In this document: positions 14,754-34,021 of the stretch, one piece after another
How positions within the stretch are numbered: position 1 is the stretch's first letter
Layout: every line of letters starts with the position of its first letter
Origin: a virus
Taxonomy: Duplodnaviria > Caudoviricetes
Reading direction: 5' to 3' (one strand)
Length of the DNA: 37,078 nt
IMG/VR virus record: IMGVR_UViG_3300034420_000015
Location: 1-37,078 of that record
Made by a program: the position numbers and the translations under genes
The notes under the pieces: model-generated
What the model saw: only the letters and a program-made list of their open reading frames with translations
Told to the model about the DNA's origin: nothing
Database searches by the model: none

Positions 14754-15121
14754 AGCTCTGTGTCCGCTGGGATGACTCGGATCATCATGCGCGTTCTACG
14801 GCGCTGGCGATCGTCGATGATTGTCGAGAAGTATGGAACGCAGTAGACGTTTATATTGGCCTCGTCGCGTAGTTCGTCTCGGACGATAGCAATCGCCTTG
14901 ATTGCCTGATTCACACAGGCGGCACCGATACACGCAAGATCAACATAACGCCACTGGTGTGTGTCATCTGGTTGAATCTTGCGACGAATCTGGCGCACAA
15001 GATGGTGAATCTCGTCGTTGTTACGAACCCAAATTTCGTCGCTTGGCGTTTCGTGTACTTCGCCTTCAATCATCTTTGTCGGCGTGGCAATGAGCAGATC
15101 GAGGTCGTCAGTTGCTGACAT
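14741..15121 (-). CDS. spoVS: SpoVS-like (Alba-fold) protein
   Basis: IGAACVNQAIKAIAIVR...VYCVPYFSTI closely matches the SpoVS core IGAGALNQAVKAIAIAR...LICIPAFTDI. Confidence 0.8.
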   Translation of the reverse strand: MSATDDLDLLIATPTKMIEGEVHETPSDEIWVRNNDEIHHLVRQIRRKIQPDDTHQWRYVDLACIGAACVNQAIKAIAIVRDELRDEANINVYCVPYFSTIIDDRQRRRTRMMIRVIPADTELCAS

Positions 15122-17924
15122 CTATTCTCCGTAGTTCGCTGATGATTTTACTGTCGAGTGTTGCAACTGCGCGCTTTACGATCGGTAGCTCCCATGTAGG
15201 CTTACGCTGGAGCGCCGTGCCGCCGAACGACGACTGTGAACGTACGACGCGATCTTTCCCGAATTGTAGCGGGGCGTCTGGTATCGGGTCCATACTAACA
15301 GACCAGCCCATCTTCTCCAGTTCGGTTATTGTAGCACCAGTGGGCGTCAGTAGAATATTCGTAGTCAGTAGCACGGGCCGTCCGGACGATTCCACGATTA
15401 TTTGCACGTTCGAAATACCATTGTCGTCGTTCATAGCCTGTAGAGCGGCCAAGTCGGTGAAATCGGTATCTGGCATGCCGACGCTGAGTAGTTCGGCGTC
15501 TGGTCGCGCTCGATCTATGCGAATGACGCGATCTGCCTTGAATGACCACCCGAATCTGGCGTCGTACTCTTTGCGCCCATAGAACACAAGCACTTCGTCC
15601 TTCTTCGTGATGTGCCGCGCTTCTTTCCAGTTGGACGCGAAGATCGTGACGTCTGGCATGTCGGTGATTCCTGTCTCGATCGTTACCCATGCCATTTCGC
15701 CATTCTTGGCCTGATGGGTACGGATTTCGAGCACCATACCGCCAATTGCGCACTTGTTATCTAAGTCCTCAAATGTGCCGTCGATGTTGGCGTCGTACCG
15801 GACCAGTTCGTGCTTATAATGCGCGAGCGGGTGGCTCGTGATATAGAAGCCTAGTACCTCCTTCTCCATCTTGAGCAATTCAGTATCGCCTACTCGCGCA
15901 GATAGCTTCGGTCGTACTGGTGGACGGCCAGCTTTGGCGCTGACGTTGAGTTCCTCGGCGCACGCGAGCAGGAACGGGCGCTCTTCTACTCCGAACGCAC
16001 CAGCCGCGATCAGACTCTTCTTGATAGCAATGTTGATATGGCCGAGTCTTGCGCAGAAATCCCAATACTGCATGAAGCCGTCGTCCGTACCGTACGGCTT
16101 CGGCGTATTCTTGACGCGGTTCGTTACCTTGACGGACGCCTTATATGGCGTTCCATCTGGCTTAACCTTGTCTATACGCCTCGACGAGTATTCATTACGT
16201 TCGTTGCTATCGCGATGCTCGATAATGTCAAGTACACTTGCGTCTCCGAGTCCCTTGACCGCGCCAATCCCGAACAGGATATCATCGCCATCGAGTGTGA
16301 ATCCAATGCCCGACTTGTTGATATTGGGAACACGAATAGAGATACCGTGCTTCTCTGCGTCTCTAAGAATCGTTCCAATTCGCGCCGTGTCTCCGATGAC
16401 GGAGTTGAGATTAGCGACGAAAAACTCTCTTGGGTAATTGGCCTTGAGGTAGGCCGTCCAGTAGGTGATGAAGGCATATCCAGTGGCGTGTCCTAGGTTG
16501 AAGCCATAGCGACCGAAGTAGAAGATCTGGTCGCCGATCGTATGTAAGAGGCGCTCGTCATGACCAAGCGCCATTGCTCGCTTGATGAACGTGTCAATGT
16601 TCTCGCGGATGAGCGGCACTAGCTTCTTACCGATCGCCTTGCGGAACATGTCGGCTTCGCCAGCGGTGTATCCGCCCAACTCGCGTACGATGCCCATGAC
16701 CTGTTCCTGATAGACGATCAGGCCGTACGTGCGTTCTAGGATCTTTTTGAGCGCTTGGTGGGCATACACCACTCGCTCTTCGCCGTGCTTACGTGCGAAG
16801 TACGATCCAAGTTGCTCCATCGGGCCTGGGCGGTAAAGTGCAATCAGGGCGATAATGTCTTCGAATCTGTCTGGCTTCATTCCGCGACAGGCGTTCGTGA
16901 TGCCGTCGCCTTCAAGCTGGAATACGCTCGATGTGTCGCCGTCCGTGAGCATGTCGAACGTACGCTGGTCGTCTAGTGGAACGCCCTTGATTGTAAAGTC
17001 TGGATTGTGTTTCTGGACGAGCTTCTCAGCGTCCCCGATTACCGTTACGGTGCGTAGGCCGAGGATGTCCATTTTGAGTAGGCCAGCAGTTTCGCAGTCG
17101 CGCATGTCGAATTGCGTCTGGATTTCTGCGTCTTTATTCTTCTTGTAGAGCGGGGCCAATTCGATCAGTGGGCGATTCGCCACCACCACGCCAGCGGCGT
17201 GGACCGAACCATGCCGACGCAGACCTTCAAGCGTCATACATGTCTCGGTAACGCTGATGTTCTGTCCTTCGAATGGTATAACCAGCGAGTTGAGCTTGTC
17301 GGCGAATTCTTTGCCGCCGTCGCTCTCCATGAACTCACTGAGCATCACCATGTCGGCACCGGATCCCTCAGGGATCATCAGCGCGAGTTTGTCGCCTGTT
17401 TCGTTCGATTTAACCCCGCGAAGAACGTCATCAACGTGTAGCACTCGGCACACATCGCGGACGACGCCTTTAGCGTTGAGAGGAGTGAAGGTAATGATGT
17501 TTGCAACTGCATCGCGTCCGTAGGTTGCACGAAGGTATTCGATAACTTCACCGCGTCTTACTTGGCATATGTCTAAGTCAATATCCGGTTGTGTGATGCG
17601 TTCTAGGTGTAGGAAACGTTCAAATGGAATGTCAAATTGTAGTGGATCAACGTCTGTAATACGTGTAGCGTACGCTACAGCACTTCCGCAAACTGATCCT
17701 CGGCCTGGTCCAGTTGGAATTCCAGACTCCCTACAAAAGCGCAGGATGTCCTGCACAATTAGAAAATAGCCTGGAAATCCCGCTTTGTCGAGTGTTGTAA
17801 GCTCGTGATTGATACGTCGTGTTACTTCGTGGTCTGGCTCTATTTCGATATTAACTCCATACCTAGCAATACAGCCTCGGTATGATAGGTATCTTAGATA
17901 ATTTATTTCAGAAGATGTGGACAT
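15108..17924 (-). CDS. dnaE: DNA polymerase III alpha (DnaE), polymerase part (palm, thumb, fingers, HhH, OB); lacks PHP
   Basis: GFPGYFLIV, GPGRGS, FERFL, PDIDLD, HAAGVV, LLKMDILGL, YRPGP, VYQEQVM, YGFN, AYLKANYP, EKEVLGFYITSHPL. Confidence 0.96.
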   Translation of the reverse strand: MSTSSEINYLRYLSYRGCIARYGVNIEIEPDHEVTRRINHELTTLDKAGFPGYFLIVQDILRFCRESGIPTGPGRGSVCGSAVAYATRITDVDPLQFDIPFERFLHLERITQPDIDLDICQVRRGEVIEYLRATYGRDAVANIITFTPLNAKGVVRDVCRVLHVDDVLRGVKSNETGDKLALMIPEGSGADMVMLSEFMESDGGKEFADKLNSLVIPFEGQNISVTETCMTLEGLRRHGSVHAAGVVVANRPLIELAPLYKKNKDAEIQTQFDMRDCETAGLLKMDILGLRTVTVIGDAEKLVQKHNPDFTIKGVPLDDQRTFDMLTDGDTSSVFQLEGDGITNACRGMKPDRFEDIIALIALYRPGPMEQLGSYFARKHGEERVVYAHQALKKILERTYGLIVYQEQVMGIVRELGGYTAGEADMFRKAIGKKLVPLIRENIDTFIKRAMALGHDERLLHTIGDQIFYFGRYGFNLGHATGYAFITYWTAYLKANYPREFFVANLNSVIGDTARIGTILRDAEKHGISIRVPNINKSGIGFTLDGDDILFGIGAVKGLGDASVLDIIEHRDSNERNEYSSRRIDKVKPDGTPYKASVKVTNRVKNTPKPYGTDDGFMQYWDFCARLGHINIAIKKSLIAAGAFGVEERPFLLACAEELNVSAKAGRPPVRPKLSARVGDTELLKMEKEVLGFYITSHPLAHYKHELVRYDANIDGTFEDLDNKCAIGGMVLEIRTHQAKNGEMAWVTIETGITDMPDVTIFASNWKEARHITKKDEVLVFYGRKEYDARFGWSFKADRVIRIDRARPDAELLSVGMPDTDFTDLAALQAMNDDNGISNVQIIVESSGRPVLLTTNILLTPTGATITELEKMGWSVSMDPIPDAPLQFGKDRVVRSQSSFGGTALQRKPTWELPIVKRAVATLDSKIISELRRIDVSN

Positions 17925-18313
17925 GTGCCGCCATTTGTGGATTTGCCGGTATTACAGTTGAAACACAATGTCTGGAACCCATCCGGAAAGTCATTCGCAA
18001 CCAGCCATAGGTATAATTGCCCAAAGCCTATCTCGTCGCGATGTCGTCTACCGCCGCCGTCAATGTGGTCAATCGTCGAGAATCGTATGTCTTTCTCTGG
18101 GCATTTTGGACACGAGCATGCCCAGCCGTAGTGATCGAATACCAACTTCTTAGCCGAGTGACGACGGATTGTTTGACGAATATTAGACTTAGCCCTGCAT
18201 GTTTTACACATGATCGTGCTTCCAGCAGACACTGGCCTCATACCACATTGTGTACAAATACCTTTTGCTTTATTAGCGTAGTAGCGTTCTCTATCTGCAA
18301 TTCTTTGCGTCAT
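17903..18313 (-). CDS. HNH-like (Zn-binding) endonuclease, putative free-standing homing endonuclease
   Basis: CxxC pairs, TIDHIDGGG, QTLCFNCNTGK, CPH; overlaps the dnaE-C start by 22 nt. Confidence 0.75.
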   Translation of the reverse strand: MTQRIADRERYYANKAKGICTQCGMRPVSAGSTIMCKTCRAKSNIRQTIRRHSAKKLVFDHYGWACSCPKCPEKDIRFSTIDHIDGGGRRHRDEIGFGQLYLWLVANDFPDGFQTLCFNCNTGKSTNGGTCPHLLK

Positions 18314-18408
18314 GTAAGTATGCCTTTTGGTGTCGGGCCGTGAACAGGCCCATATGGGTTGCCGTACATGAAGATATTTTCAAGTGCTCGCCATTCAGCT
18401 TCCGTCAT
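18310..18408 (-). CDS. 32-aa hypothetical peptide (MTEAEWRALENIFMYGNPYGPVHGPTPKGILT)
   Basis: Not in the ORF track; ATGA overlaps at both ends fill the gap exactly. Confidence 0.6.
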   Translation of the reverse strand: MTEAEWRALENIFMYGNPYGPVHGPTPKGILT

Positions 18409-18647
18409 ACGACGAATCCTCTATCGCACTTCGGATTTGGACATTGATCCTTGAAGTGTGTGCCTTCAATGTTGTCATCGTGTTTGCTGAGTGGCGACCA
18501 AATAAAGCCCTCGCCACCGCACGAATCGCAGACCTTTGCGCCACAGAACACGCAAATATTCTTGCTATTCACCCATCCATGGCCGCATGTTTTGGTGTCG
18601 CGTCCGCGCATCTGCACGTGGAAATACTTGTCTTCGTAATGAGTCAT
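18405..18647 (-). CDS. Small Cys-rich (Zn-finger-like) protein
   Basis: CGH, CVFC, CDSCGGEG, CPNPKCDRG; ATGA-coupled at both ends. Confidence 0.7.
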   Translation of the reverse strand: MTHYEDKYFHVQMRGRDTKTCGHGWVNSKNICVFCGAKVCDSCGGEGFIWSPLSKHDDNIEGTHFKDQCPNPKCDRGFVV

Positions 18648-19089: not shown

Positions 19090-19090
19090 A

Positions 19091-19330: not shown

Positions 19331-19332
19331 CG

Positions 19333-20354: not shown

Positions 20355-20669
20355 CTAGATCAGGCCCTGCAACAACCTCCTAGCAATCGTCTTGGTGTCG
20401 CCGTATTGCTCGGCTGATTGTACGCGTTCATTAATTTCGGCGTATCCAGCGATGTCAACGTTCGTGTCGCGCTTGTGCCCACGACCAGAACGAACGAGCT
20501 TGAATGCCAGCTTAACGCCGGTTACGTCTGACGGCGTAATGAGCTTTCCGCGAGTGACGGTCGCCACGATCGCCTCTCGTACCGCATTCTCGACAGGATC
20601 GCCATACTCATCCTGTCGAGTAGAATTGACTGTGCTATCGGCCTCAGCCAAAATGCTCTTGCTCTTCAT
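20355..20669 (-). CDS. DUF6378-like small all-alpha protein (possible nucleotide pyrophosphatase)
   Basis: IL.EA...V...RQ.EYG.P.EN...K..R...D..VDIAGYA pattern. Confidence 0.7.
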   Translation of the reverse strand: MKSKSILAEADSTVNSTRQDEYGDPVENAVREAIVATVTRGKLITPSDVTGVKLAFKLVRSGRGHKRDTNVDIAGYAEINERVQSAEQYGDTKTIARRLLQGLI

Positions 20670-21151
20670 TACGCCCCCGACGATCCGAAGCCAGTAGCAC
20701 CGCGATCAGTGGGTAGTAGTTCGTGGACGCGGCGAATCTCTGGACGGACAGCATTGAAGAAGATTACCTGCGCATAGCGCTCGTCGTGCTTGACGATACG
20801 AGGCAGCCACCCGAAGTTGCCGAGCACAGTGTATAGCTCGCCCCTGTACCCAGAATCGAGCACTCCACCGAGGACGATCATGCGCTTGCGTGATGTACTG
20901 GAACGAGCAACAATCCATGCCCAGACCCCATCGTGGAGTCCAAGGTGAAGTCCGCTGTTGATGATTCGCTCGCTATGTGGCATCACAACGATGCAGTCGC
21001 GCCCGACGAATAGCGATACGATCTTATCGAGGATCGTCATGTGGTCGCGACCAATCACGGTATGAATGTCATGCCCGACGTCGCCACTTTTCTTTGGCGT
21101 GAACGGCACCAAACGCGACATCGGGCCAGCTAGTTCGATGACATTACGCAT
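20669..21151 (-). CDS. dut: Trimeric dUTPase
   Basis: GDVGHDI, ARSS, GVLDSGYRGE, ERYAQ, RGATGFGSSG. Start placed at ATG 21151. Confidence 0.93.
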   Translation of the reverse strand: MRNVIELAGPMSRLVPFTPKKSGDVGHDIHTVIGRDHMTILDKIVSLFVGRDCIVVMPHSERIINSGLHLGLHDGVWAWIVARSSTSRKRMIVLGGVLDSGYRGELYTVLGNFGWLPRIVKHDERYAQVIFFNAVRPEIRRVHELLPTDRGATGFGSSGA

Positions 21152-21722
21152 TGTGAGTGGCCTTGAATTTGACGATAGCGTTGAACGCCTGATTGAGTTG
21201 ATACCACTCGTCGCCGATCGGAATATGCTCCATGGAAACGCCATCCATGTTATTAATCGACTCGATCAGGGGCCATGTCTCGCGCCAGAATCCATCTAGG
21301 CGCTCGTTGATCGTGGCGCTGTCATCGTCGCCGCGACCACGCAGGGTCAGGCGCATCTTGGCCATACCATCATTACAGCCAAGGTAGAGCACGAGGATTT
21401 GCGAGAGTGGAACCGCCTCTGTCATCTGCGCGAATTGGCGCATGTAGCGAGGGTATCCATCGAGAATGATGTGGTCGTACTGTCCGCTCTTGGCATCCTC
21501 GATTTCTGCGATCATCGCCTCGTTCATTTTATCGCGTGGTGCGAAGTCACCGGCTGTTAAGGCGATACGTGTCTCTTCGTCTGTCTCGGCCAGCCTACGC
21601 GCGACGTCACCAGCCGCGATGTATGCGGTCTTGAGCGTGGACCTGTTCAACTGCTGTGTTAGTGCGGAAGTCAGCGTGGACTTACCTGCTCCAGGCATTC
21701 CGACGATCGGGATGAAGATCAT
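21144..21722 (-). CDS. adk: Adenylate-kinase-family NMP kinase (short LID)
   Basis: GMPGAGKST, GDVARR, GDFAP, LDGYPR...Q, RGRGDD...I..RL. Confidence 0.82.
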   Translation of the reverse strand: MIFIPIVGMPGAGKSTLTSALTQQLNRSTLKTAYIAAGDVARRLAETDEETRIALTAGDFAPRDKMNEAMIAEIEDAKSGQYDHIILDGYPRYMRQFAQMTEAVPLSQILVLYLGCNDGMAKMRLTLRGRGDDDSATINERLDGFWRETWPLIESINNMDGVSMEHIPIGDEWYQLNQAFNAIVKFKATHNA

Positions 21723-22480
21723 ACGTGCTTGTACTCCGTTGCGATGTAGTGTACGCCATCGTCGCTGATGGCACGGTTGAAATCACTGAACAGGAGCGGT
21801 GCTTCGGCCTTCAACGTGATGAGGACCCACAACGCGAGGGTACGAATCTCCCTGTCGGCGGCTGGCGATCCGCGCATCGTCAAGAAATGGCGCCACGCAC
21901 GTACGTTTGCCGTAACTACGATCTTCGTTTCGGCGCAGTTTGGGAGTACAGAGCGAGCGCACTCACGGAGTTTCTTCGCTTCGATGGTGCTCTCCGATCC
22001 GCGCATCTGGTCGATGATTGTCTTGTACGCCGCCTGTGCATTTTCGCAGAGCTTGATCCATGCGTGATACGCGTTGCTTCCGTGTTCGAGAGCCGGTGGT
22101 TGGACGAACGCAATATCTGTCGGTTCGACGAATCTCTGGCTCAACTGGCTATACGCGAATCCGGCGCGATGCCGTACCAGTTCATGAGTCAGGGAGCGTG
22201 ACACGCCCTCAAATAGGAGCGAATAGGTGGCGTGTTCGAACACCGATCCATGGCCCTGATCCTTGATGTTCTGAAAGTACTTCTCGATTGTCTTGCGGCC
22301 CTGCACCGTCTTGTGGCCGTCCATCGTTCCTTCGCCGAAGCTCATGTAACACAGCCGACTTGCGAACTCGCTCAAGTCTTGAGCATTGCTCTCGTGGCTG
22401 GCTTTGAACTTGAAGTGGTCTGGATTGATGAAGTGAGGTCGTGCGAGTAGCGTTACTTTGGGTTGAGTAATAATCTGCAT
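21719..22480 (-). CDS. thyX: Flavin-dependent thymidylate synthase
   Basis: GHGSVFEH, SRSLTHELVRHRAGFAYSQLSQRF (RHRx7S), ARSVLP, N.RAWRHF...R...A.REIR. Confidence 0.97.
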   Translation of the reverse strand: MQIITQPKVTLLARPHFINPDHFKFKASHESNAQDLSEFASRLCYMSFGEGTMDGHKTVQGRKTIEKYFQNIKDQGHGSVFEHATYSLLFEGVSRSLTHELVRHRAGFAYSQLSQRFVEPTDIAFVQPPALEHGSNAYHAWIKLCENAQAAYKTIIDQMRGSESTIEAKKLRECARSVLPNCAETKIVVTANVRAWRHFLTMRGSPAADREIRTLALWVLITLKAEAPLLFSDFNRAISDDGVHYIATEYKHV

Positions 22481-22507: not shown

Positions 22508-25087
22508 TCACTCGGTATCTGCGCGCGGCCTTGGCTTACTAGATACAAACCGATACTCGAACATTCGCATGACCTCTGCGTCGAATATCACGTTTGTTAT
22601 GACACCGCCTCGGCCATGGCGGTGTTTCGCCAATTCCATGATGCGGTTGCCCTTCTCTTTGCCATCGGCATCTATCTCTTCCTTACTCTTCTCGCGGAAG
22701 AAGATGCCAACGTCAGCGTCCTGAATGATCTTGTAGCTCTCGCCGATTGACTCTTTCGCCGTACTACCGGACTTGGCTGATTCGCGGTTATGCTGTGCGA
22801 GTGCTACCAATACGATGTCTAGCTCCTTGGCGATGTTGAGGAATCCACGGCTGATGTGTCCAAGCTCCTGATCGCGACGCTGGGACGATACTTCGCGGTC
22901 AGTAGAGTACATCAGCTGGATATAGTCAACGAACACCACCTTAGTACCGCGACGCAGTACATCGTTGCGAATGATTGCGATGCATTCCTCGTAAGCCACC
23001 CCGCTCTCAGTCAGCGACAGGGGCGATGCCGCGAGTTGTGATGCGGCGTCTTGGACTGCCTCTACTTCTGCGGCGTTGATGAATCCTGTGAGGACTTTAT
23101 CGCTAGGGACCCCGCTGATACTGCTGATAATACGATCCGCGAGAGTTTCCGTCCCAGTTTCAAACGTGAGATAGAGCGAAGGAACACTAAGGTCAACAGC
23201 AAGACGCTTAGCCAAGCAACCTGCAAAAGCCGTCTTACCAACTCCAGTAGGTGCCGAAATAATGACATAACGCCCCGTCTGTAGGCCGTGAAGCGTGTTG
23301 TTCAGAATAGCGAAATCCGCGCCAAGATCGAACCCAACAATTGCATTCGGGTCTGCCATTCTTTCGCTGAGTAGCCCCATTCTCTCAGTAACGACCTTGC
23401 GTACGTCCAATACGCCGCCTCCTTGCGAAACCACGCTAGCAGAGATTGAAGCGCTGAGATTTTGGATGACATGTTTTGCGTCCTGTTTGGTGTCGCCTAG
23501 CCGCTTGATGGCCTCGGTGGCCTTGTCGCGGATAGTGCGGCGGATGGATTTGTCCTTTAAGTCGCCTAGGAAGAATCCAGCGCTCGATCCATCTGCGCTC
23601 GTGATGTCCATTACACTAAACACCACGCCCTTCATCTGTTGGCCGTGCTTGTTCTCGATGACGGTGGTGAGGATGTCTGGTGAAATGTCGCCCTGCGACC
23701 GATAGAGCTTGCCAATCTCATCGAATAGTACGCGATGGCGCGACAGGAAGAAATCCTTAGCGTGTAGATGCGTGAGCGCCTCTCCGACGAACAGGTCGTC
23801 GGTAAGCATGCGCTTCAATACGCATCGTTCGCCGTAGATATTTTGCAGTACGGCGGCGTCTTCTGCTTCCTTGAAGAAGTCTGCGATGATGTCGTCGTCT
23901 AGATCGAGCATGCCACCAAGCATCTTAGCGGCAAGGCTCTTCTCGATTTCTGGTGCGTGGACTAACTTTGGCTTGATTTCGTTCAGGAAGTCTAGACGTT
24001 CAGTGGATTTCGATAGGTTGAATTGCTCAGCCGCAGTAGCGATGACGTATTCGAATGCATATGTGGCCGACGCGATCGCTTGGTCGATGGGACCCGTTCC
24101 ATCCGCCAGCAATATCTCATCTGGATCCTTACCATTCCCAGATAGTCTAGCTATCTTGACTGATACCTTGTGGCCTATCCTAGACTCGGCTACGCGCCTT
24201 GCAAATTCGCGTCCAGGCTCATCGTTATCCGCCATCACAATTACGCGATTGACGCCGATACCATCCAATGCGGCCAGCGCATCGTCGCCTAATTGCGTAC
24301 CGTACGTCGAGGCGACGTTGCAGTATCCGTGAGCCGCCATCTGCCAGACGTCGGGTTCTCCCTCTACCAGTATCAAGGTGCCAGACGCGCGGATGTATTT
24401 CTTCGCCTCGTAGAGTCCGTACAGAGGCGGCATGTCGAGCGGATGTTCCTTTTTCGGACCTACTACTTTGATCTTCGTGACGCCAGTTGGCCTATTGCGG
24501 AAGCCAGCTACTCTGCCGTGCGCATCTCGAACTGGCACAACTATGACGTTTTCCCATTGTCCCGTCCTGTCGAACCCAAGCTCAGCTGGCCCGTCAGGAC
24601 AGCCGTATGAGTAGCCGACGCCGAATGCCTTTAATGCGTCTCTGTTTAGGCGCCGGCGCTCAAGCCAGTCCGTGTATGGTTCTACGTCTGGGTCGGCGAG
24701 TTGTTCCGCCACATTGAAGTTAGCGGTAAACAGGGCTTCGCGAGCGCGGTCTTCTTCGGTTGTCGGAACAGAGTATTGCGATAAGTCAACGCCACCGAAT
24801 TCGGCCAGTTTACGGACTGCCTCGATGTGTTCGATGTTGTCCATCTTCTGGACGAACTTGAACAGATCGCCGCCCTCTTTACACCCGAAGCAATGGTATA
24901 CTTGCCTACTACTACTGATGCCAAAACTCGGAGTCTTCTCGTCGTGGAACGGGCAGAGTCCCTTGAAATCGTCGCCGCCTATTCCAGACAGTTTGATACC
25001 GTATAATTTCTGTGCAACGTCTTCTAGGCGGCACGTTAGGCGAATCTGATCACGTAGCGCGTCTAGGTTGCGAAGCTTATACATCAT
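22508..25087 (-). CDS. DnaG primase - DnaB helicase fusion
   Basis: CHC2 finger (CPFHDEKTPSF...HCFGC), TOPRIM (VEGEPD, DND..G), then DnaB N-domain and RecA-like core (APTGVGKT, VDYIQL, LAQHNR, KHRHG). Confidence 0.93.
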   Translation of the reverse strand: MMYKLRNLDALRDQIRLTCRLEDVAQKLYGIKLSGIGGDDFKGLCPFHDEKTPSFGISSSRQVYHCFGCKEGGDLFKFVQKMDNIEHIEAVRKLAEFGGVDLSQYSVPTTEEDRAREALFTANFNVAEQLADPDVEPYTDWLERRRLNRDALKAFGVGYSYGCPDGPAELGFDRTGQWENVIVVPVRDAHGRVAGFRNRPTGVTKIKVVGPKKEHPLDMPPLYGLYEAKKYIRASGTLILVEGEPDVWQMAAHGYCNVASTYGTQLGDDALAALDGIGVNRVIVMADNDEPGREFARRVAESRIGHKVSVKIARLSGNGKDPDEILLADGTGPIDQAIASATYAFEYVIATAAEQFNLSKSTERLDFLNEIKPKLVHAPEIEKSLAAKMLGGMLDLDDDIIADFFKEAEDAAVLQNIYGERCVLKRMLTDDLFVGEALTHLHAKDFFLSRHRVLFDEIGKLYRSQGDISPDILTTVIENKHGQQMKGVVFSVMDITSADGSSAGFFLGDLKDKSIRRTIRDKATEAIKRLGDTKQDAKHVIQNLSASISASVVSQGGGVLDVRKVVTERMGLLSERMADPNAIVGFDLGADFAILNNTLHGLQTGRYVIISAPTGVGKTAFAGCLAKRLAVDLSVPSLYLTFETGTETLADRIISSISGVPSDKVLTGFINAAEVEAVQDAASQLAASPLSLTESGVAYEECIAIIRNDVLRRGTKVVFVDYIQLMYSTDREVSSQRRDQELGHISRGFLNIAKELDIVLVALAQHNRESAKSGSTAKESIGESYKIIQDADVGIFFREKSKEEIDADGKEKGNRIMELAKHRHGRGGVITNVIFDAEVMRMFEYRFVSSKPRPRADTE

Positions 25088-25736
25088 TCAGTGCGCCTCT
25101 GATGTCCAAGTCATGTTCCATGTCTTTCCAACGATTGGCAAGTACGCGCGCTTCGACGTAATCAAGTGGTTCAGAAGACGTCGCAACGTCCGTTGTGTGG
25201 TGTTGTAGCTTGCTGATTGTCTCCTTGAGTATATTAACACGTGTCTCGAAAGATCGTCTCGCCACGCCGTGTAGATAGAAGATGTTACGTGAGAACTTCT
25301 TTGCCGCCGTTATCTGCATGAGCAGGGTTGTCTTGTCTGGCGCGAGCCTTGGAATCTCTGACACCAGCAGGGCCAGTTCTTTTAGGCCGAAGTCCGCTAA
25401 TAGGAACCCATTGCAAACAGCCGTATAGCACGTAGTAACGTGCTCGTCGATTGCGAAATCCACTGGCTCGGTGCGGTGCGCCACAATTCTCGGAGTGAGC
25501 ATCGACCAAACGGGCTTATGCAAGTAGCGCCAGCCAAACTGATCGAGCTTCTCGATCTTCGCGGCGGCATCTGTCTTGGCGCTAGGCTTCATCACCGACG
25601 CGATGGTGCTCGCGATGTGATTGAACAGGAACTTGCCGACTGTCTGCTCGATGTGTATGTACGAGTCAGGATCGACCGTCACGCCGTAGTCGCCAATCAG
25701 GTTCACTACTTTCCGTGCTTCTGTTGAGCAGTGCAC
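25077..25736 (-). CDS. Hypothetical protein
   Basis: 219-aa ORF overlapping both neighbours; no motif recognised. Confidence 0.65.
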   Translation of the reverse strand: MHCSTEARKVVNLIGDYGVTVDPDSYIHIEQTVGKFLFNHIASTIASVMKPSAKTDAAAKIEKLDQFGWRYLHKPVWSMLTPRIVAHRTEPVDFAIDEHVTTCYTAVCNGFLLADFGLKELALLVSEIPRLAPDKTTLLMQITAAKKFSRNIFYLHGVARRSFETRVNILKETISKLQHHTTDVATSSEPLDYVEARVLANRWKDMEHDLDIRGALNDV

Positions 25737-28204
25737 TATACGTCCGTGATGATGAATTCGGGTTCCGACTCGTAGATTTCTTGGCGCTTCTTGGAGTGGT
25801 CTTGTAGGAACTTGGCCTTGTCGTCGAAATCGATGACTATGGCATTCTTCTTGTTGCCGAATGTACGTAGAACGCGTCCGACTCGCTGTAGTGCGCGTGT
25901 GCTTGACTTGCCGCCGCCGAGTAGCACCAATGCTTCGAGCGGCCTGATGTCGAGTCCTTCGTCTGCGATGGTTGTAGCGACGAGTAGTTTCACTGTGCCG
26001 TCGCGCATGCCCTGAATCGTACTATTGCGTGTGTCGCTGGTGTCCTTGCCGGACAAAAATGGGACTGGCTCGCCCAAAATCGACTCTAGTTCGTTGGCGA
26101 TGAATGCGCCGTGCGAGATATGGCGCACCAGAACCATGGTCGTCTTGCCCTTACGTACCAGCGAGAGCGTCTGTGTAATTCCGAGCGCGTTACGCGCGGA
26201 GTTGTTCACGATGTACTGATCGTACACGGTCGAGTATTTGGTTCCCTTGGGGAACATCACTGGCGGCACTGGTACGAACTTGATGTATGGGCGCACTAGG
26301 TAGCCCATGTTGATCAATGTGCTGGCGGAGATATCAACCACCACCTGACCGAACACAGCTTCGAGCACTAGGTCGGCTCCATCGTCGCGCCACGGCGACG
26401 CTGAAAGCCCGATACGATACATCGCGTTGTCAATCGCGGATAGTACGTTCGTCGCTGTCGGTGCCGCCACGCGGTGGCAGTTGTGTACAAGAATATTTCC
26501 AGCAAAGAATGAGTGCGTTTGCTCTACTTCTAGATCGTAGACATGCTCCCTACGTCCGGCGTCCAGAACAGATGCACGCAAGAGAGCAACAGGACCGCCA
26601 ATGTCTAGGCGCTCGCCACCATCTGCGCATCCGAGTATCTTGTAGCGCATTGACTCAATGATATGTGGGCCAACAATGCGCGTGAACCGATCTATGTTGT
26701 CCCTGCCGGTTGCGTCTAGTCTCCAATATTTGTTCTTTGTGCGAGTTTTCGTCCATATGACGCCATGATGACTATAAAACCAAGATACAATCAAGTCTAC
26801 TGATTCCTCGTCAAATCCTTCTGTGTGGATTGATATGACGGTCCCCCTACCGTTATTGCTCCCGTCGTCCATAAACCACCACGCGAGTCCTCTACTGTCT
26901 AAAGCGTCTAGCCATTCAGCAGTTGGTTTACGCGCAACGTTGATTGGGAGCCGATCAAACAACTTGTCGCATTTAGTGTTGAACCATAAAGTCGTATTAC
27001 CAAACCCCGCATTTCTACGCGACTGTACGCCCGTTCCGACCATTGCTCGAATTGTTCGCTCCTTGGCGTGAATATATTCTTTCTGGTTGGGGCCGTGAAC
27101 GAAGCGCATACGCTTTTTACCGCTCGGTAGCGCGTCGAACGATCCGTCACCAAGACCAGATCCAAGTATCAACTGTTCAATCGCCTCGTCACGCATGGTG
27201 CGTACCAATTCGCCAAGCACTTTATTAGCGTTGACATATCCTTTGTCTTGGACGTAGATTGGATGATCACGCGTGCACGAAAGATTGCCTATCTCAATAA
27301 TATTTTGTACGCCACGTTTTATGCGTCGCAAGATCTTTCTGTTGACGAGTACGCCATCGTGCATAGTCAGAACGCTAGTCCCAACTCCCGACTCCACGAT
27401 ATCCCTGATTGGTACTGCTCCTACGTCTGTTGTTACGAGAGTGTCTCCGGAAATACACTCATCCATGATTACGACGCCAGCACTCTGTATCGTCTGTACA
27501 ACCTGCGGGATTTTGGCGTCGTCCATCTTGGCTTCGTCGTCCTCGTCTTCCGAGTACGCGTACTTCTCATAGTCGGCCTTGAGCGCTAGCGCGGCGGTCT
27601 GAATGGTGCAAATCGTGATGTCGTTCGGCTCGCAGTGGGCGTCGCCGATCAGCCCGACGCGATCTTCGCCAAAGATCTTGGCGAAGACGTCGTGTGCTTG
27701 ATACATCAAGTCCTTGGTGTGCACCAAGAAGATGGTGGGCATGCCACACTCGGCGATCACACGAGCGGCAATGTATGTCTTGCCGCCGCCAGTGGCTACC
27801 TTGACCATACAACGGCCCGTTTCCATAATCACGCGTACTGCTTCCTCTTGGTATCCTCGCTGTTCGAATCCGCTGAGGTCTGTGGTGTACGTGCGCCATG
27901 CGGCCCACGGCTTGGTGTTGTACTCGGTGTTGTACTCGATGTGGTTTGCAGTCAGAATATATTCTACTCGCGGAAGCAATCCAGATGGGAACGTGCGGAA
28001 TCCCTTGTGGTATAGCCGCTTCATCCCGTCCCAATTTGCCATCTTACCATATCGAGGGCCGTACTTCATAGCGTTGTTGCGCTTCATGAATTCGGCATTC
28101 TCGACTTGGTATGAGCACGCTTCACTAATGGCGTTCGTTACCGCGAATGGCAATACGCCATCCTCGATGCGTGACGTAGCGTGTCCGACGCGAATCGTGA
28201 TCAT
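25736..28204 (-). CDS. SF2 helicase (ResIII/UvsW/XPB-like), intein-containing
   Basis: RGYQ, ATGGGKT, DE//CH, GLSASP.R.D, DEGLDI, QRVGRVLR. Confidence 0.93.
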   Translation of the reverse strand: MITIRVGHATSRIEDGVLPFAVTNAISEACSYQVENAEFMKRNNAMKYGPRYGKMANWDGMKRLYHKGFRTFPSGLLPRVEYILTANHIEYNTEYNTKPWAAWRTYTTDLSGFEQRGYQEEAVRVIMETGRCMVKVATGGGKTYIAARVIAECGMPTIFLVHTKDLMYQAHDVFAKIFGEDRVGLIGDAHCEPNDITICTIQTAALALKADYEKYAYSEDEDDEAKMDDAKIPQVVQTIQSAGVVIMDECISGDTLVTTDVGAVPIRDIVESGVGTSVLTMHDGVLVNRKILRRIKRGVQNIIEIGNLSCTRDHPIYVQDKGYVNANKVLGELVRTMRDEAIEQLILGSGLGDGSFDALPSGKKRMRFVHGPNQKEYIHAKERTIRAMVGTGVQSRRNAGFGNTTLWFNTKCDKLFDRLPINVARKPTAEWLDALDSRGLAWWFMDDGSNNGRGTVISIHTEGFDEESVDLIVSWFYSHHGVIWTKTRTKNKYWRLDATGRDNIDRFTRIVGPHIIESMRYKILGCADGGERLDIGGPVALLRASVLDAGRREHVYDLEVEQTHSFFAGNILVHNCHRVAAPTATNVLSAIDNAMYRIGLSASPWRDDGADLVLEAVFGQVVVDISASTLINMGYLVRPYIKFVPVPPVMFPKGTKYSTVYDQYIVNNSARNALGITQTLSLVRKGKTTMVLVRHISHGAFIANELESILGEPVPFLSGKDTSDTRNSTIQGMRDGTVKLLVATTIADEGLDIRPLEALVLLGGGKSSTRALQRVGRVLRTFGNKKNAIVIDFDDKAKFLQDHSKKRQEIYESEPEFIITDV
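26480..27457 (-). mobile_element. 326-aa intein with LAGLIDADG homing endonuclease
   Basis: Starts CISGDTLV, block B CTRDHPIY, LAGLIDADG helices LILGSGLGDGS and LAWWFMDDGS, ends VYDLEVEQTHSFFAGNILVHN followed by Cys+1. Confidence 0.95.
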
Positions 28205-29185: not shown

Positions 29186-29186
29186 C

Positions 29187-30163: not shown

Positions 30164-30468
30164 AGCCCGAAGCTCTCTAGCATAGCTAGCGCCTCACTCG
30201 CCTTTTCGCCTTGCTGGAATCGCACATCGCGGTCCATTGACTGGATCAGCTTGCGAACCATACTGGCCATCTGGCTGAAACGCGCTTCGCGGATGTTACA
30301 GTAGAAATCAAGTAGACGACGCGCTACCTCGTCTGTGTGTTCGGGATCGATCCACAACGTGCCGTCTGTGTCGATCGTCAGAATCGCATTACTTGGCGTG
30401 CCAGCGGACACCACCAATGCGAAATGCTTCGCATCTGGGACCCTGATCGCTAGATCGGTGTCAGTCAT
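30160..30468 (-). CDS. Hypothetical protein
   Basis: Start MTDTD after GGAAGG; overlaps both neighbours. Confidence 0.6.
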   Translation of the reverse strand: MTDTDLAIRVPDAKHFALVVSAGTPSNAILTIDTDGTLWIDPEHTDEVARRLLDFYCNIREARFSQMASMVRKLIQSMDRDVRFQQGEKASEALAMLESFGL

Positions 30469-30667
30469 CGTAATCCTTCCCCTTGTTGCGTTGAAAACCA
30501 CCGCCCATGTCGTGCTCTTCGAACTCGTCGTCTAGATCCCAGAGGGGATTGTCTTCCTCTGGGTCGCGTTCGCGATCGTTGTCTTCGTCTACGTGGCCTT
30601 CGGAAGGCTCAGGCAGTTCGTTGTCTTCATCGTAGGCGTGAAACCACTCGTCGTCTTCGTAAGACAT
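30461..30667 (-). CDS. 68-aa highly acidic protein
   Basis: Starts MSYEDDEWF 1 nt after the recA stop; 29 of 68 residues are D/E. Confidence 0.65.
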   Translation of the reverse strand: MSYEDDEWFHAYDEDNELPEPSEGHVDEDNDRERDPEEDNPLWDLDDEFEEHDMGGGFQRNKGKDYDD

Positions 30668-30668
30668 C

Positions 30669-31679
30669 TTAGTCTGCAGCTTCCGCCTGTAGGATGAGGG
30701 CGCGGATGTAGTCCACGAGGTTTGGCTCTTCCTTGATCGCGTCTTCGAGCGCGGCACGACCAGCGAATCGCTTATCTTCGCCTAGAACCTCGCCAGTTTC
30801 TAGATCGACCATTGGCAGGTAGAACCACGATCCGGACTGACGAATTGCACCGCACGAAATGGCCGTATCAACCATATCGCTTGTCAAGTCGAGTCCCGTA
30901 CTGTACATGAGGTCGAATTCGGACGTCTGGAATGGCACGCCGACCTTGTTCTTGATGATGTTGGTGCGCAAGCGATGGCCAATTCGCATGTCTCCCTTCT
31001 TGTAAACTTGGCCTGGCTTGATTTCAACGATCATCGACGCGTAGTGACGTAGCGCCTTGCCGCCTGGAGCATAGAGTTGCTTACCGCCCTTCCACCAGCT
31101 AGGCGGATTTGGGTTCTCGCGCATCTGGTTGACGAACATTACCGCTGTTCGCTGATGCAGAGTCGCGACAACTTTCGGTAGCTCTTCGGAGTGCATTCGC
31201 GCGACTGCGGCTCGACCACCAGCCTCACCAGCCGCTGTGTCAATCGCGTCACGTGTGGTCAATGCAGTTGTTGAATCAAACCCAACGACATCGAATTGAC
31301 CGCACGACGCCATTTCGCGTAGAAGGTCATACGCCATGTCAAGCGTTGTTGGGCGGCGTACAAATGGTGCGAGTTCCTCCCAATTGACACCCAATAGGCG
31401 CGCAAAATTGGGGGTAAGAGCGTGCTCTGCGTCGATGAATGCACAGCGTCCTCCCTGTGCTTGAGCGTGTGCAATCGTCTTCAACAGCATGAGCGTCTTA
31501 CCGCTATGTTCCTCGCCCTGCATAATCGAGATACGATTACGAGGGAATCCTCCAATGCCGGTGGACGAGTCGAACGAAGTGATCCCTGTGGGGGCAGGGA
31601 CCACTTCGGTAGACCCAATGCCGCCGTCGATCGCGTCGATCTTGGCGAGCAAATCCTTAAGGTCTTTCTCGTCTGACAT
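30669..31679 (-). CDS. recA: RecA/UvsX-like recombinase
   Basis: GIGGFPR.RI, GEEHSGKT, AFIDAEHAL, FVNQMR, PGGKALRHYAS, KNKV..PF, GSWF. Confidence 0.95.
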   Translation of the reverse strand: MSDEKDLKDLLAKIDAIDGGIGSTEVVPAPTGITSFDSSTGIGGFPRNRISIMQGEEHSGKTLMLLKTIAHAQAQGGRCAFIDAEHALTPNFARLLGVNWEELAPFVRRPTTLDMAYDLLREMASCGQFDVVGFDSTTALTTRDAIDTAAGEAGGRAAVARMHSEELPKVVATLHQRTAVMFVNQMRENPNPPSWWKGGKQLYAPGGKALRHYASMIVEIKPGQVYKKGDMRIGHRLRTNIIKNKVGVPFQTSEFDLMYSTGLDLTSDMVDTAISCGAIRQSGSWFYLPMVDLETGEVLGEDKRFAGRAALEDAIKEEPNLVDYIRALILQAEAAD

Positions 31680-32779
31680 TACTCAGCCACCACGGTGCTC
31701 TTGATGTCAACGAGCAGGGTGTCAAGCTGAGCAACCGTGAGATCCTTCAGTCGCGTCTTGCCACCGCCGTGCTTCTTGATGACGTTCACCATTTCGGCAA
31801 CGTCCTCGAAGCGTGGCATAGCCTCGAAGTAGCCCTGGACCTCTTCCAGTAGCTCGCCGCGCTTCTTCGAATCCTCGGCCTTCTTCGGCTCCGGCTTGTC
31901 GGCTTTCGGAGCGTCTGCCTTCTTCGGCGGCTCTGCTGGCTTGTCGGCCTTCGGTAGGGCCTTGGTGTTGCCCTTGCCGATCGTCGCCATGTGCTTCGCG
32001 GCAACGCGGCATGCGGCGGCGAGCTGGTCATTCGTGGTGACGTTCTCGGACGCCCATTCCACGTAGCCAGCGTCCGTAACGAGAACGTCGCCGACCGACT
32101 TGTCCTTGTGCTTGCCGAATGTGAACTTGATGATCTTGGCCTCGTCGAAGCTCATCGAGTCAGCCATCGCCGCCGCTGGGTCGTAGTCGATGTCCAAACC
32201 AGCCTCAGACAACATGCGAATCTGATCTTCTTCGGTCACAGGCGGGAAGACGTTCTCCCACTTCCACGCCTCGTCGCTCTCCATCGCCTGTGTGACCTCG
32301 GCGACATTCAGATCGAACGACTTCGGTGAAGCGGATACTGCGTACTCGGTGTCGCGGCCTTCGCCAGAACGCGTGATCGTGATGTCGTACCCGTTCAGAT
32401 GGCCGTTGTTGTTGTAAATCTCACGCAACTGCTTGAAGATGGCTGGGCCACCCTGCAGGATGCGGATTTCGCCACCTTCGGCGACCGGACGCTTCTTGTC
32501 GTCGAGAGCGTAGACCCACGCCCTCATGTTGAACTGCATCGTGTCCGGATAGCGCTTGCCATTGCGCTTTAGGATGAAGTTGTCATCCGCCTTTGCTGTC
32601 GCTGGAATCGAGCGGAAGACCTCCTGCCCACCCTGCACCTGCGAAATCTTGTGGACCCGCGTCGTGTGCGGTTCCTCGTCGAGCACGCGTAGGCGTAGCG
32701 TCACGCCTGATTCGAACTGCACGAACCTACCTGCACCACCACTACCTCGCCCTGCTCTGTCGATGTCGCCCCAAGCCAT
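31679..32779 (-). CDS. ssDNA-binding protein (gp32-like) with extra C-terminal domains
   Basis: LRVL...H...IRIL.GG.AIFKQL...GYDITITRSGEG.DTEY core, then FGKHK...YVEW module, a K/P/A/E linker and a helical tail; GAGGA RBS. Confidence 0.75.
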   Translation of the reverse strand: MAWGDIDRAGRGSGGAGRFVQFESGVTLRLRVLDEEPHTTRVHKISQVQGGQEVFRSIPATAKADDNFILKRNGKRYPDTMQFNMRAWVYALDDKKRPVAEGGEIRILQGGPAIFKQLREIYNNNGHLNGYDITITRSGEGRDTEYAVSASPKSFDLNVAEVTQAMESDEAWKWENVFPPVTEEDQIRMLSEAGLDIDYDPAAAMADSMSFDEAKIIKFTFGKHKDKSVGDVLVTDAGYVEWASENVTTNDQLAAACRVAAKHMATIGKGNTKALPKADKPAEPPKKADAPKADKPEPKKAEDSKKRGELLEEVQGYFEAMPRFEDVAEMVNVIKKHGGGKTRLKDLTVAQLDTLLVDIKSTVVAE

Positions 32780-32829
32780 GCTGATATCCTCGTTAAAGAT
32801 GTGTATGGGAGTCTGATGACTACTAGGTA

Positions 32830-32835
32830 TTGTAC
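32830..32835 (-). promoter_or_regulatory. Possible -10 element (TACAAT) upstream of the SSB-recA genes
   Basis: Lies in one of the few intergenic gaps; no canonical -35 seen. Confidence 0.3.
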
Positions 32836-32851
32836 GCGCGACGGTTATCGG

Positions 32852-34021
32852 CTAAACGTCGTAGATGAACTGGAGTGAATCGGTGAGATTAATCGTGTGG
32901 TTGTCGTCTGGGCCGGTCTTGATGTAGCCGACGCGCGGACGCATAAAATGGCTGTATCCGTCGAAGATTCCGCGCAGGAACAGGTTGAGCTTCGCCACTA
33001 TTTCGCTATTCGGGTCGTCACGAAGAAGAGCGACGAACCCATCAGTGTCCATACCGTAAAGGCGATGGTCGATATAGTCCGCGAACGTAACGGCCAAGAA
33101 GTCTGGCATGCAGACGTCGAACATCCGGTGTAGGCGGTGATTGTCGATTTCGAAGATGCGACGTACGCGCTTCGTAACCGTAGTGCGCTCGATCAGCGGG
33201 ACAGGGGACCCACTGCGCTGAGTAATCTCATCCCACGTCATTTCACGTCCACCGAACGGACCGGAGTTGCCGATCTGTACTCCGTTCTCGTAGACGTTAC
33301 CGACGCGAATTGGGTACGTCCGGATCGTTGCCGTGACGCTACGCACGTATGTATCTGGAATGCCTAGATCGGCCAGTACTTGCATCGGCGTGGTTTGGCG
33401 GCTCGTGCAGTATGGGTACGCGATCCCGTGATGGATGTCTAGGTCGAAACCCTGCGATCCTTCGACCAGAACATTCTTGCCAGCGCGTATCGCGTTCAGC
33501 GTCAACGCGGTGGTGTCTGTGATGAACGGCTTCAACCATGGAATGTCGCGAGCGAGTTGTACATCCTGCGACCGCATGACCTTACGAGCCAGAGCACGAC
33601 CACATCCCTTGGCAGTAGAAGCCAAGTAGATTGTCTTCGAGCGCTCATATTCTGCATCATCAGGAGATATGATCATCGCTCGATCGCTGATCCGCAGTCG
33701 CTGGTCCGCATTGTAGGCGGAGCACTCGTTCAACTCGGTTTCGAGCCGACTGAGGGTGATTGCTGACGAAGGGCCAATCACCAGATGTGGGATGTCGGGG
33801 TTGACCACTCCGACAGGGAGTTGCTGGACCATCACCTTCTCACACGCTGGCGGTCCACTGATCCAAGTGTGACCAGCGTTTGTCATGAACGTGCAAGCGG
33901 CGATTTCGTAGTCGCCTCGAAGGGCCATATGCCCGACGATGGCTCCCTTGCCTTCGCTACCTGCCTGACCACCGAATACTACGTCTGCTCCGTTAGTCAG
34001 CAGATTCCTGTGCGTCCGCAT
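32852..34021 (-). CDS. purZ: PurA-family synthetase with PurZ/PurZ0 signature (putative diaminopurine pathway enzyme)
   Basis: GGQAGSEGKG (Ser in place of the catalytic Asp of PurA GDEGKG), NAGHT, ST.KG.G, VEGSQGF.LD, YPYCTSR, RTYPIRV.....NSGP, ERTTVTKRVRR, TFADY; short archaeal-PurA-like architecture. Confidence 0.85.
   Translation of the reverse strand: MRTHRNLLTNGADVVFGGQAGSEGKGAIVGHMALRGDYEIAACTFMTNAGHTWISGPPACEKVMVQQLPVGVVNPDIPHLVIGPSSAITLSRLETELNECSAYNADQRLRISDRAMIISPDDAEYERSKTIYLASTAKGCGRALARKVMRSQDVQLARDIPWLKPFITDTTALTLNAIRAGKNVLVEGSQGFDLDIHHGIAYPYCTSRQTTPMQVLADLGIPDTYVRSVTATIRTYPIRVGNVYENGVQIGNSGPFGGREMTWDEITQRSGSPVPLIERTTVTKRVRRIFEIDNHRLHRMFDVCMPDFLAVTFADYIDHRLYGMDTDGFVALLRDDPNSEIVAKLNLFLRGIFDGYSHFMRPRVGYIKTGPDDNHTINLTDSLQFIYDV

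What the first reader, a model, noticed from the sequence alone, without database searches (positions are those of the whole stretch)
15108..34021. Candidate Z-DNA (2-aminoadenine) phage built on a split family C replicase
Seen: one operon carries a PurZ-type synthetase, an AK-family kinase, dUTPase, ThyX, a DUF6378-like protein, a DnaG-DnaB fusion and DnaE as two genes. No family A polymerase or HD-domain DatZ is in the window. Known: characterised Z-genome phages pair PurZ with DpoZ (family A) or PrimPol, usually with DatZ/MazZ. Inference: this may be a different Z system, in which a DnaE core plus a free PHP exonuclease and alternative pool-editing enzymes enforce Z over A. About 37 kb is visible, so missing partners may lie elsewhere in the genome.
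Basis: partly seen in the sequence, partly recalled or inferred. Interest (0 to 1): 0.92.

Follow-up and report, generated by a model that had tools for sequence, protein, structure and literature searches.

The report
Z-DNA phage lineage using split DnaE
This virus of bacteria carries a gene set that likely swaps adenine for the unusual base 2-aminoadenine (Z) in its DNA, yet it encodes a two-piece bacterial-type replicase (DnaE) instead of the polymerases known from Z-DNA phages, and a cultured relative with the same gene layout already exists for a direct test.

Summary
The named genes are all present. The synthetase has the PurZ serine (S22) and groups on the PurZ side of the tree, but misses the curated PurZ cut-off and has a PurZ0-like donor residue. 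The dnaE split is conserved, not an artefact: two complete relatives, the cultured Bacillus phage vB_BpsS-140 and an IMG/VR genome, share the gene order and split point, and have no family A polymerase, DatZ, DUF550 or DUF5664. Both encode a DmtZ-like protein, and the lineage's dUTPase groups with DutZ, so the 'alternative pool editors' are probably the published DutZ/DmtZ kit. Two indirect lines point to adenine modification. Published digests left BpsS-140 uncut by DraI (21 sites), HindIII, PstI and BamHI, all blocked by dZ, though that table is noisy. The three genomes avoid 0 of 65 dZ-blocked sites (non-PurZ controls 43 of 256) while purging A-free sites. PHP is predicted to re-dock on the core rather than act freely. 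Z in the virion and any polymerase selectivity are untested. Verdict: likely a Z-genome lineage (about 75%) replicated by family C; new variant, directly testable.

The parts
33993..35276 (-). PD-(D/E)XK (Cas4/AddB-like) nuclease, first conserved gene of the block
   Evidence: PF12705; same place in BpsS-140 and G001
32852..34021 (-). PurZ-type synthetase, 389 aa: S22 (=VpPurZ S14), E23, T280 (=T262), F313/D315/Y316 (=F295/N297/Y298)
31679..32779 (-). gp32-like single-stranded DNA binding protein
   Evidence: phrog_1192; syntenic in both relatives
30669..31679 (-). RecA
   Evidence: PF00154
29612..30163 (-). Holliday junction resolvase-like nuclease
   Evidence: phrog_244; syntenic
25736..28204 (-). 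SF2 helicase with a LAGLIDADG intein (aa 250-575, nt 26480-27457)
   Evidence: relatives lack the insert
22508..25087 (-). DnaG-DnaB primase-helicase fusion
   Evidence: BpsS-140 is the top hit among 50,697 phage records and matches in one piece over 94%
21719..22480 (-). ThyX thymidylate synthase (not fixed in this position in relatives)
   Evidence: PF02511
21144..21722 (-). Adenylate-kinase-family kinase, candidate dZMP kinase (inferred)
   Evidence: PF00406; between primase and dut in both relatives
20669..21151 (-). Trimeric dUTPase-family enzyme, DutZ-like; candidate dATP/dGTP pyrophosphatase (inferred)
20355..20669 (-). DUF6378 protein, accessory, no match in the two complete relatives
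   Evidence: PF19905
19333..20307 (-). Stand-alone PHP domain of DnaE with intact HHDHEHCDH site (H7,H9,D16,H41,E66,H87,C137,D220,H222)
   Evidence: motif definition PMC12926913
18405..19330 (-). Three small ORFs of no known family between the two dnaE halves
17903..18313 (-). HNH endonuclease gene overlapping the DnaE-core start by 22 nt
   Evidence: phrog_2255
15108..17924 (-). DnaE core without PHP (palm, thumb, fingers, HhH, C-terminal domains), catalytic D114, D116, D286

Best explanation
The window is part of a phage from a lineage that likely makes 2-aminoadenine (Z) DNA by re-tooling the nucleotide pool and would copy it with a two-subunit DnaE replicase. Shown: the gene set, the conserved gene order, the split point and the diagnostic residues. 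[quoted passage not shown] (2) The Ser-type synthetase joins aspartate to dGMP, probably using GTP in this phage (D315). (3) Host PurB releases dZMP; the phage kinase and host kinases make dZTP. (4) A DmtZ-like enzyme, seen in both complete relatives and possibly in the missing 37% of this genome, removes dAMP and salvages Z. (5) PHP and core re-assemble into an ordinary proofreading DnaE, which with DnaG-DnaB, SSB and RecA incorporates Z mainly because dATP is scarce, as with the non-selective S-2L PrimPol. The benefit would be protection from restriction enzymes whose sites contain A.
For: Synthetase: Ser for the PurA Asp; best PDB hits are phiVC8 PurZ entries at E 3e-38; inside the PurZ-side group, SH-like support 0.936. 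Cultured BpsS-140 is the top phage record for the synthetase (43%), the dUTPase (35%) and the primase-helicase and shares order and split; G001 (68 kb, terminal repeats) likewise. Both have DnaE and no PolA. 12 of 20 PHP-less DnaE relatives on contigs >=19 kb share a contig length with a synthetase homolog, against 0 of 30 ordinary DnaEs; 5 also match a dUTPase. DmtZ-like proteins in 2 of 2 complete relatives keep Y6, D12, P57, N77, G99, E103 (residues from PMC12884076). The dUTPase clade (0.969) lies in a 29-member group (0.889) with both assayed DutZ enzymes, out of 127 sequences. BpsS-140 DNA was scored uncut by DraI, HindIII, PstI and BamHI (21, 6, 4, 3 sites) and cut by EcoRI; dZ DNA is R, R, R, R and partially resistant to these; DraI cut the other 11 of 12 phages. 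dZ-blocked sites avoided: 0 of 65 here, 7 of 107 in 6 PurZ phages, 43 of 256 in 14 non-PurZ phages; A-free sites 11 of 25, 26 of 66, 42 of 133. With the same host species, BpsS-36 has 0 GATC and BpsS-140 has 327 in about 50 kb each, while both have 0 GGCC and 0 CGCG. PHP-core model 0.89, best control 0.00; mark reached by 116 of 157 solved and 2 of 215 mismatched pairs; runs agree on at least 97% of contacts; partner pLDDT at least 90; expected from likeness to intact DnaE. E. coli takes up Z when given only purZ, datZ and mazZ (19-20% in plasmid DNA), which suggests family C enzymes tolerate dZTP.
Against: No base analysis or enzyme assay exists for any member. The synthetase scores 206.4 bits on the PurZ model, under the 300 cut-off; the BpsS-140 and G001 proteins score higher on the archaeal PurA model than on PurZ. 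F12 is A/V in this lineage and BpsS-140 has Ala at T262. The published digest table is unreliable: in 7 control phages 6 of 25 pairs with >=3 sites were also scored uncut and 3 of 11 zero-site pairs were scored cut; BpsS-140 against controls gives Fisher p 0.067; the BpsS-36 row fits its own genome badly, so label mix-ups are possible, and I could not see the gel. Site avoidance reflects host range as well: 2 of 14 non-PurZ controls also avoid no dZ-blocked site (though they avoid nothing at all), 3 of 6 PurZ phages avoid some, and pooled p-values treat sites as independent. The RSS motif II is not diagnostic (22 of 79 other viral dUTPase loci have it with no synthetase nearby), and 4 of the 29 members of the DutZ group have no synthetase in their flank; the 2 of them that could be searched are fragments without one. 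No DmtZ-like gene is in the window (best E 0.84). Contig-length matching is indirect. Monophyly of the window, BpsS-140 and G001 synthetases has weak support.
Confidence: 0.55

Rival explanations
1. Z-DNA as above, but the split DnaE itself discriminates: the core prefers dZTP and/or the PHP excises A opposite T, making it a family C counterpart of DpoZ.
For: The window's subclade has fixed changes near the fingers and palm: FN(L/R)GH for FNKSH (G478 in 24 of 24 against S in 11 of 12), FLHL for FLNP, RKAIGKK for RRAMGKK. The split is peculiar to this lineage: 79 of 80 other viral DnaEs are fused to PHP. DpoZ arose twice independently in family A (PMC12884076).
Against: BpsS-140 and G001 keep FNKSH and FLN(S/P). 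Clade-fixed residues can be neutral. One clade member (P0163) is fused. S-2L reaches full substitution with a non-selective polymerase.
Confidence: 0.2
2. Ordinary DNA: the synthetase is a divergent PurA-like auxiliary gene that, with the kinase, dUTPase and ThyX, boosts normal dNTP supply, and the dnaE split is a neutral gene fission.
For: Below the PurZ cut-off; relatives score better on archaeal PurA. Kinase, dUTPase and ThyX are common in phages with normal DNA (established knowledge). EcoRI cut BpsS-140 and the digest table is noisy.
Against: The catalytic Asp, kept in 99% of the PurA group, is Ser in 101 SE plus 5 ST of 120 homologs, 14 unparsed. DmtZ-type residues in both relatives. The avoidance contrast and the DraI result.
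Confidence: 0.13
3. Adenine is only partly replaced by Z, or by a different purine made from the same succinyl intermediate, so the genome is mixed.
For: EcoRI cut completely and KpnI poorly. No dedicated dATPase family (HD, DUF550, DUF5664) in either complete genome. The lineage mixes D and N at the donor position.
Against: EcoRI is only partially blocked even by 98% dZ DNA. DutZ alone hydrolyses dATP about tenfold faster than dGTP. No further base-modifying family among 88 proteins scanned from the two relatives or 41 from the window.
Confidence: 0.12

Closest known systems
PurZ0 phages Wayne (Arthrobacter) and Ghobes (Gordonia): PurZ0 + DutZ + DmtZ + DpoZ-1 (PMC12884076)
   Same: Ser/Glu P-loop, Asp at the donor position (window), a dUTPase in the DutZ group, a DmtZ-like protein in relatives, no DatZ/MazZ.
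   Different: The synthetase is outside the PurZ0 clade; the polymerase is a split family C enzyme, not family A; RecA, DnaG-DnaB fusion and a kinase are in the block; the cultured host is a Bacillus.
PurZ phages phiVC8-like and SH-Ab 15497-like: PurZ + DatZ + MazZ/DUF550 + DpoZ-2
   Same: The synthetase is on the PurZ side of the tree and keeps S14, T262, F295, Y298 equivalents.
   Different: E for T15, A for F12, D for N297 in the window; no HD, DUF550 or DUF5664; no family A polymerase.
Cyanophage S-2L: PurZ + DatZ + MazZ with a non-selective PrimPol
   Same: Precedent for Z-DNA enforced by the nucleotide pool with a non-DpoZ polymerase.
   Different: Different pool enzymes and a different polymerase family.
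Bacillus phage vB_BpsS-140 (MH884512, DSM 29700; PMC6375668, PMC6483233)
   Same: Same gene order and same PHP/core split; the 2019 paper lists dnaE_1 and dnaE_2, and GenBank notes likeness of its purA to phiVC8.
   Different: Its synthetase has N at the donor position and Ala at T262; the halves abut with an ATGA overlap; no link to Z-DNA is made in the passages I read.
Bacterial DnaE1 with active PHP (M. tuberculosis type) and fused phage DnaEs
   Same: Intact HHDHEHCDH site and three catalytic aspartates; predicted same PHP-core interface.
   Different: Encoded as two genes; 79 of 80 other viral DnaEs examined are fused.

Membership tests
PurZ (ATP-using dSMP synthetase) | Ser in place of the PurA catalytic Asp (VpPurZ S14) | tested here: met
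   S22
PurZ (ATP-using dSMP synthetase) | T262, F295, Y298 equivalents (bioRxiv 2025.10.22.683976) | tested here: met
   T280, F313, Y316
PurZ (ATP-using dSMP synthetase) | F12 equivalent | tested here: not met
   A20
PurZ (ATP-using dSMP synthetase) | Amide residue at N297 that excludes guanine donors (PMC8342488) | tested here: not met
   D315 in the window; N in BpsS-140 and G001
PurZ (ATP-using dSMP synthetase) | NCBIfam NF038379 cut-off of 300 bits | tested here: not met
   206.4 bits, still its best model
PurZ (ATP-using dSMP synthetase) | dGMP + Asp to dSMP activity | not testable with these tools
   needs an assay
PurZ0 (GTP-using) | Ser-Glu P-loop and Asp at the donor position as in Wayne and Ghobes | tested here: met
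   S22-E23, D315; reading Asp as GTP use is inference from recalled PurA structure
PurZ0 (GTP-using) | Falls in the PurZ0 clade | tested here: not met
   PurZ0 clade (1.0) excludes it
PurA | Catalytic Asp13 | tested here: not met
   Ser; all PurA models under cut-off
DutZ | Groups with the dUTPases of PurZ0 phages | tested here: inconclusive
   29-member group, support 0.889, holds Wayne and Ghobes DutZ but also 4 loci with no synthetase nearby
DutZ | Hydrolyses dATP and dGTP | not testable with these tools
   needs an assay
DmtZ | NDT-family gene in this phage | tested here: inconclusive
   none in the visible 63%; present in 2 of 2 complete relatives
DmtZ | Y6, D12, P57, N77, E103, W124 (relatives' proteins) | tested here: inconclusive
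   five kept, W124 is P, in a four-sequence alignment
DpoZ | Family A polymerase | tested here: not met
   no PF00476 in window ORFs, G001 or BpsS-140
DnaE with proofreading PHP | HHDHEH[C/H]DH site and three catalytic Asp | tested here: met
DnaE split by intein or intron | Intein ends or a self-splicing intron at the junction | tested here: not met
   no intein Pfam hit on either half; Rfam finds only a tRNA in the window; halves abut in relatives
Z-genome phage | dZ replaces dA in virion DNA | not testable with these tools
   only indirect signs

The most novel reading that the evidence does not exclude
A widespread phage lineage with a cultured Bacillus member has a full Z genome copied by a family C replicase that has itself evolved Z-over-A selectivity in its fingers or its separately encoded PHP proofreader: a family C counterpart of DpoZ, built on the same fold as the bacterial chromosomal replicase.
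Probability: 0.2. Interest if true: 0.93.

Novelty: new variant of a known kind. Interest (0 to 1): 0.8.

Why it matters
Characterised Z genomes use family A DpoZ or a PrimPol, and hosts named in the literature I read are Pseudomonadota, Cyanobacteriota and Actinomycetota. A Z genome copied by a proofreading DnaE would show that the bacterial replicase family can sustain a ZTGC genome, which bears directly on efforts to push Z substitution in cells past the 20-60% reported. The synthetases mix PurZ and PurZ0 features and switch between the D and N donor states within one lineage, so they may document the GTP-to-ATP transition. The claim is cheap to test: the relative is deposited as DSM 29700. 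The restriction-site avoidance contrast may also serve as a sequence-only screen for adenine-substituted genomes.

Tried and rejected
Sequencing error or frameshift for the dnaE split: rejected, the halves are 1.4 kb apart here and split at the same place in two complete relatives; most of the 53 closest DnaE proteins start at the same YLRYL-type helix, a few being partial. Intron or split intein: no sign. HNH gene as cause of the split: not needed, relatives have none at the junction. DUF6378 as pool editor: no support; single-sequence fold failed (pLDDT 44.9) so no fold search was run; the Atlas returned only DUF6378 clusters; 3 papers mention it, seen as listings only. RSS motif as DutZ marker: not diagnostic. 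First avoidance test with a second-order model gave no significant R versus S+GC contrast per genome (window p 0.21), partly because sites nest; the maximal-order model and the 0.25 / z<-2 threshold were chosen after seeing that. PstI, HindIII and BamHI non-cutting are weak alone since controls show the same. Promoter and terminator scan: at chance level. Earlier findings of this scan: none. The PAJD-1 genome was left out of the avoidance controls for lack of a fetch slot; five large controls were read only over their first 60 kb.


Full report
Observation. The window is a whole 37,078-nt viral contig, about 63% complete. It runs from a tape-measure gene through tail and lysis genes on the plus strand into a co-oriented minus-strand replication block. 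The two dnaE halves are a 324-aa PHP protein and a 938-aa core, separated by three small ORFs and an HNH gene. The PHP keeps all nine metal-site residues and the core keeps three catalytic aspartates (motif from PMC12926913, passages).

The synthetase. It has GSEGKG where PurA has GDEGKG. Its best solved relatives are phiVC8 PurZ entries, then archaeal PurA, S-2L PurZ and entry 7vf6 (that 7vf6 is PurZ0 is recalled). Against Vibrio PurZ numbering it keeps S14, T262, F295 and Y298, but has A at F12, E at T15 and D at N297. It scores 206.4 bits on NCBIfam PurZ, cut-off 300. In a 74-sequence FastTree tree it lies in the PurZ-side group (0.936), outside the PurZ0 clade (1.0) and outside PurA. Among the best 120 of 1,848 homologs, 101 have SE, 5 ST and 14 were unparsed; 69 have D and 38 N at the donor position, 13 unparsed. 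It is best called a PurZ-type enzyme of its own sub-lineage.

The lineage. Among 50,697 phage records, Bacillus phage vB_BpsS-140 is the top hit for the synthetase, the dUTPase and the primase-helicase fusion. It carries the order nuclease, synthetase, SSB, RecA, resolvase, helicase, DnaG-DnaB, kinase, dUTPase, PHP, DnaE core, with PHP and core as abutting ORFs split at the same point. The 2019 genome paper lists dnaE_1 and dnaE_2 and has no occurrence of 'adenylosuccinate' in its main text (PMC6375668, passages). IMG/VR genome G001 (68 kb, terminal repeats) has the same layout. Of 26 synthetase-bearing records searched, 3 have DnaE and 16 a PolA-family match; G001 and BpsS-140 have DnaE only. 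Neither has HD_3, DUF5664 or DUF550. The 53 closest DnaE proteins form a distinct set; 52 carry no PHP annotation and one is fused. Of 20 such proteins (the window's own left out) on contigs of 19 kb or more, 12 share a contig length with a synthetase homolog, against 0 of 30 ordinary DnaEs; this is indirect, as the contigs could not be fetched. Of 80 other viral DnaE loci, 79 are fused to PHP.

Pool enzymes. PMC12884076 (parts 1, 3, 4, 5 of 7 and passages; supplement text searched, figures not seen) shows that PurZ0 phages use DutZ, a dUTPase that hydrolyses dATP and dGTP, and DmtZ, an NDT-family dAMP hydrolase. The window's dUTPase clade, which includes BpsS-140 and G001, groups with Wayne and Ghobes DutZ in trees of 52 and 127 sequences. 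The group also holds four loci with no synthetase nearby, and the RSS motif is not diagnostic. Both complete relatives encode an NDT-family protein with the DmtZ residues Y6, D12, P57, N77, G99 and E103, but P for W124. None is in the window. DUF6378 has no match in the relatives.

Is adenine modified? First line: PMC6483233 (passages and S3 Table; gel image not seen) scored BpsS-140 DNA as uncut by DraI, PstI, HindIII and BamHI, poorly cut by KpnI and cut by EcoRI. Its genome has 21, 4, 6, 3, 4 and 24 sites. PMC12944874 (abstract, two sections, Table S1) rates dZ DNA resistant to the first four, partially resistant to EcoRI and untested for KpnI. DraI cut the other 11 of 12 phages. The table is noisy, however: in the 7 of those 11 whose genomes I fetched, 6 of 25 pairs with three or more sites were scored uncut and 3 of 11 zero-site pairs were scored cut; binomial p 0.033, Fisher p 0.067. 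Second line: the window, G001 and BpsS-140 strongly avoid 11 of 25 A-free palindromes, 0 of 96 with two or more A, and 0 of 65 dZ-blocked sites. Six PurZ phages give 26 of 66, 4 of 115 and 7 of 107. Fourteen phages without the synthetase give 42 of 133, 35 of 348 and 43 of 256. BpsS-36 and BpsS-140 share a host species and both have no GGCC or CGCG, but GATC counts are 0 and 327. The thresholds were set after a first, weaker test, sites are not independent, and host range confounds the result, so this is supportive and not proof.

Mechanism. The most economical reading is pool control. E. coli given only purZ, datZ and mazZ takes up Z, and S-2L uses a non-selective polymerase (PMC8065100 listing; PMC8342488 passages). 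The PHP-core pair passed the complex test (0.89 against 0.00; 116 of 157 solved and 2 of 215 mismatched pairs reach the mark; contacts agree at 97% or more; partner pLDDT 90 or more), a pass expected from likeness to intact DnaE. The window's subclade has fixed substitutions in the fingers, but BpsS-140 and G001 do not share them, so polymerase selectivity remains open. My odds: Z-DNA by pool control 0.55, Z-DNA with a selective DnaE 0.20, partial or other purine 0.12, ordinary DNA 0.13.

Novelty. Searches for aminoadenine + DnaE and for diaminopurine + DNA polymerase III + phage + purZ gave 0 papers. 'vB_BpsS-140' gave 4 papers, none on Z by title or abstract. Searches gave no listing that joins family C to Z-DNA. 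PMC8599892 has no mention of DnaE or family C. The library lacks most subscription journals; the 2021 Science papers and the 2023 PurZ0 paper are recalled, not read, and BpsS-140 may appear in their tables, in Fig. 5 of PMC12884076, or among the 116 domains of bioRxiv 2025.10.22.683976 (parts 1-4 of 5 read, figures and supplements not seen). PMC13128860 was read in passages for the PacBio test. I rate this a new variant of a known kind, with high interest because a deposited phage makes it testable at once.

Noticed in passing
window 25736-28204 (-), intein 26480-27457: The SF2 helicase carries a LAGLIDADG intein inside its DExH motif; both complete relatives lack it.
   Followed up: partly
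window 14241-15121 (-): A SpoVS-like gene and a J-domain gene follow the DnaE core directly. G001 instead carries SpoIIID and NrdD/NrdG genes.
   Followed up: no
window 11706-13407 (+): A calcineurin-like phosphoesterase and a HAD/polynucleotide-kinase-like phosphatase lie after the lysis genes; the HAD protein could act on nucleotides.
   Followed up: no
window 13474-13547 (-): tRNA-Gln(TTG) at the end of the minus-strand block.
   Followed up: no
window 3125-8854 (+): A 1,909-aa tail-region protein with repeated DSDDD/DVP-type modules has no Pfam or PHROG match.
   Followed up: no
L009, L028, L030, L034, L024 (G005, G008, G010, G012, G014): IMG/VR phages with PurZ-side synthetases, family A polymerases and DutZ-group dUTPases: further mixed PurZ/PurZ0 kits.
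   Followed up: partly
L104 and L032 (G011, 263 kb): A contig of a halophilic archaeal genome and a large virus carry closely related Ser-Glu synthetases with TFxDY.
   Followed up: no
L040:43785-47392 (MH884512): The feature table shown for BpsS-140 omits locus tags 61 and 62, the two dnaE halves, although both ORFs are open.
   Followed up: yes
L395:9337-11955: One other viral DnaE lacks a PHP in frame and within its flank.
   Followed up: no
L140-L142 (BpsS-36): BpsS-36 has 72 HindIII sites but was scored uncut, and was scored cut by three enzymes with no sites; a modification or a label error.
   Followed up: partly
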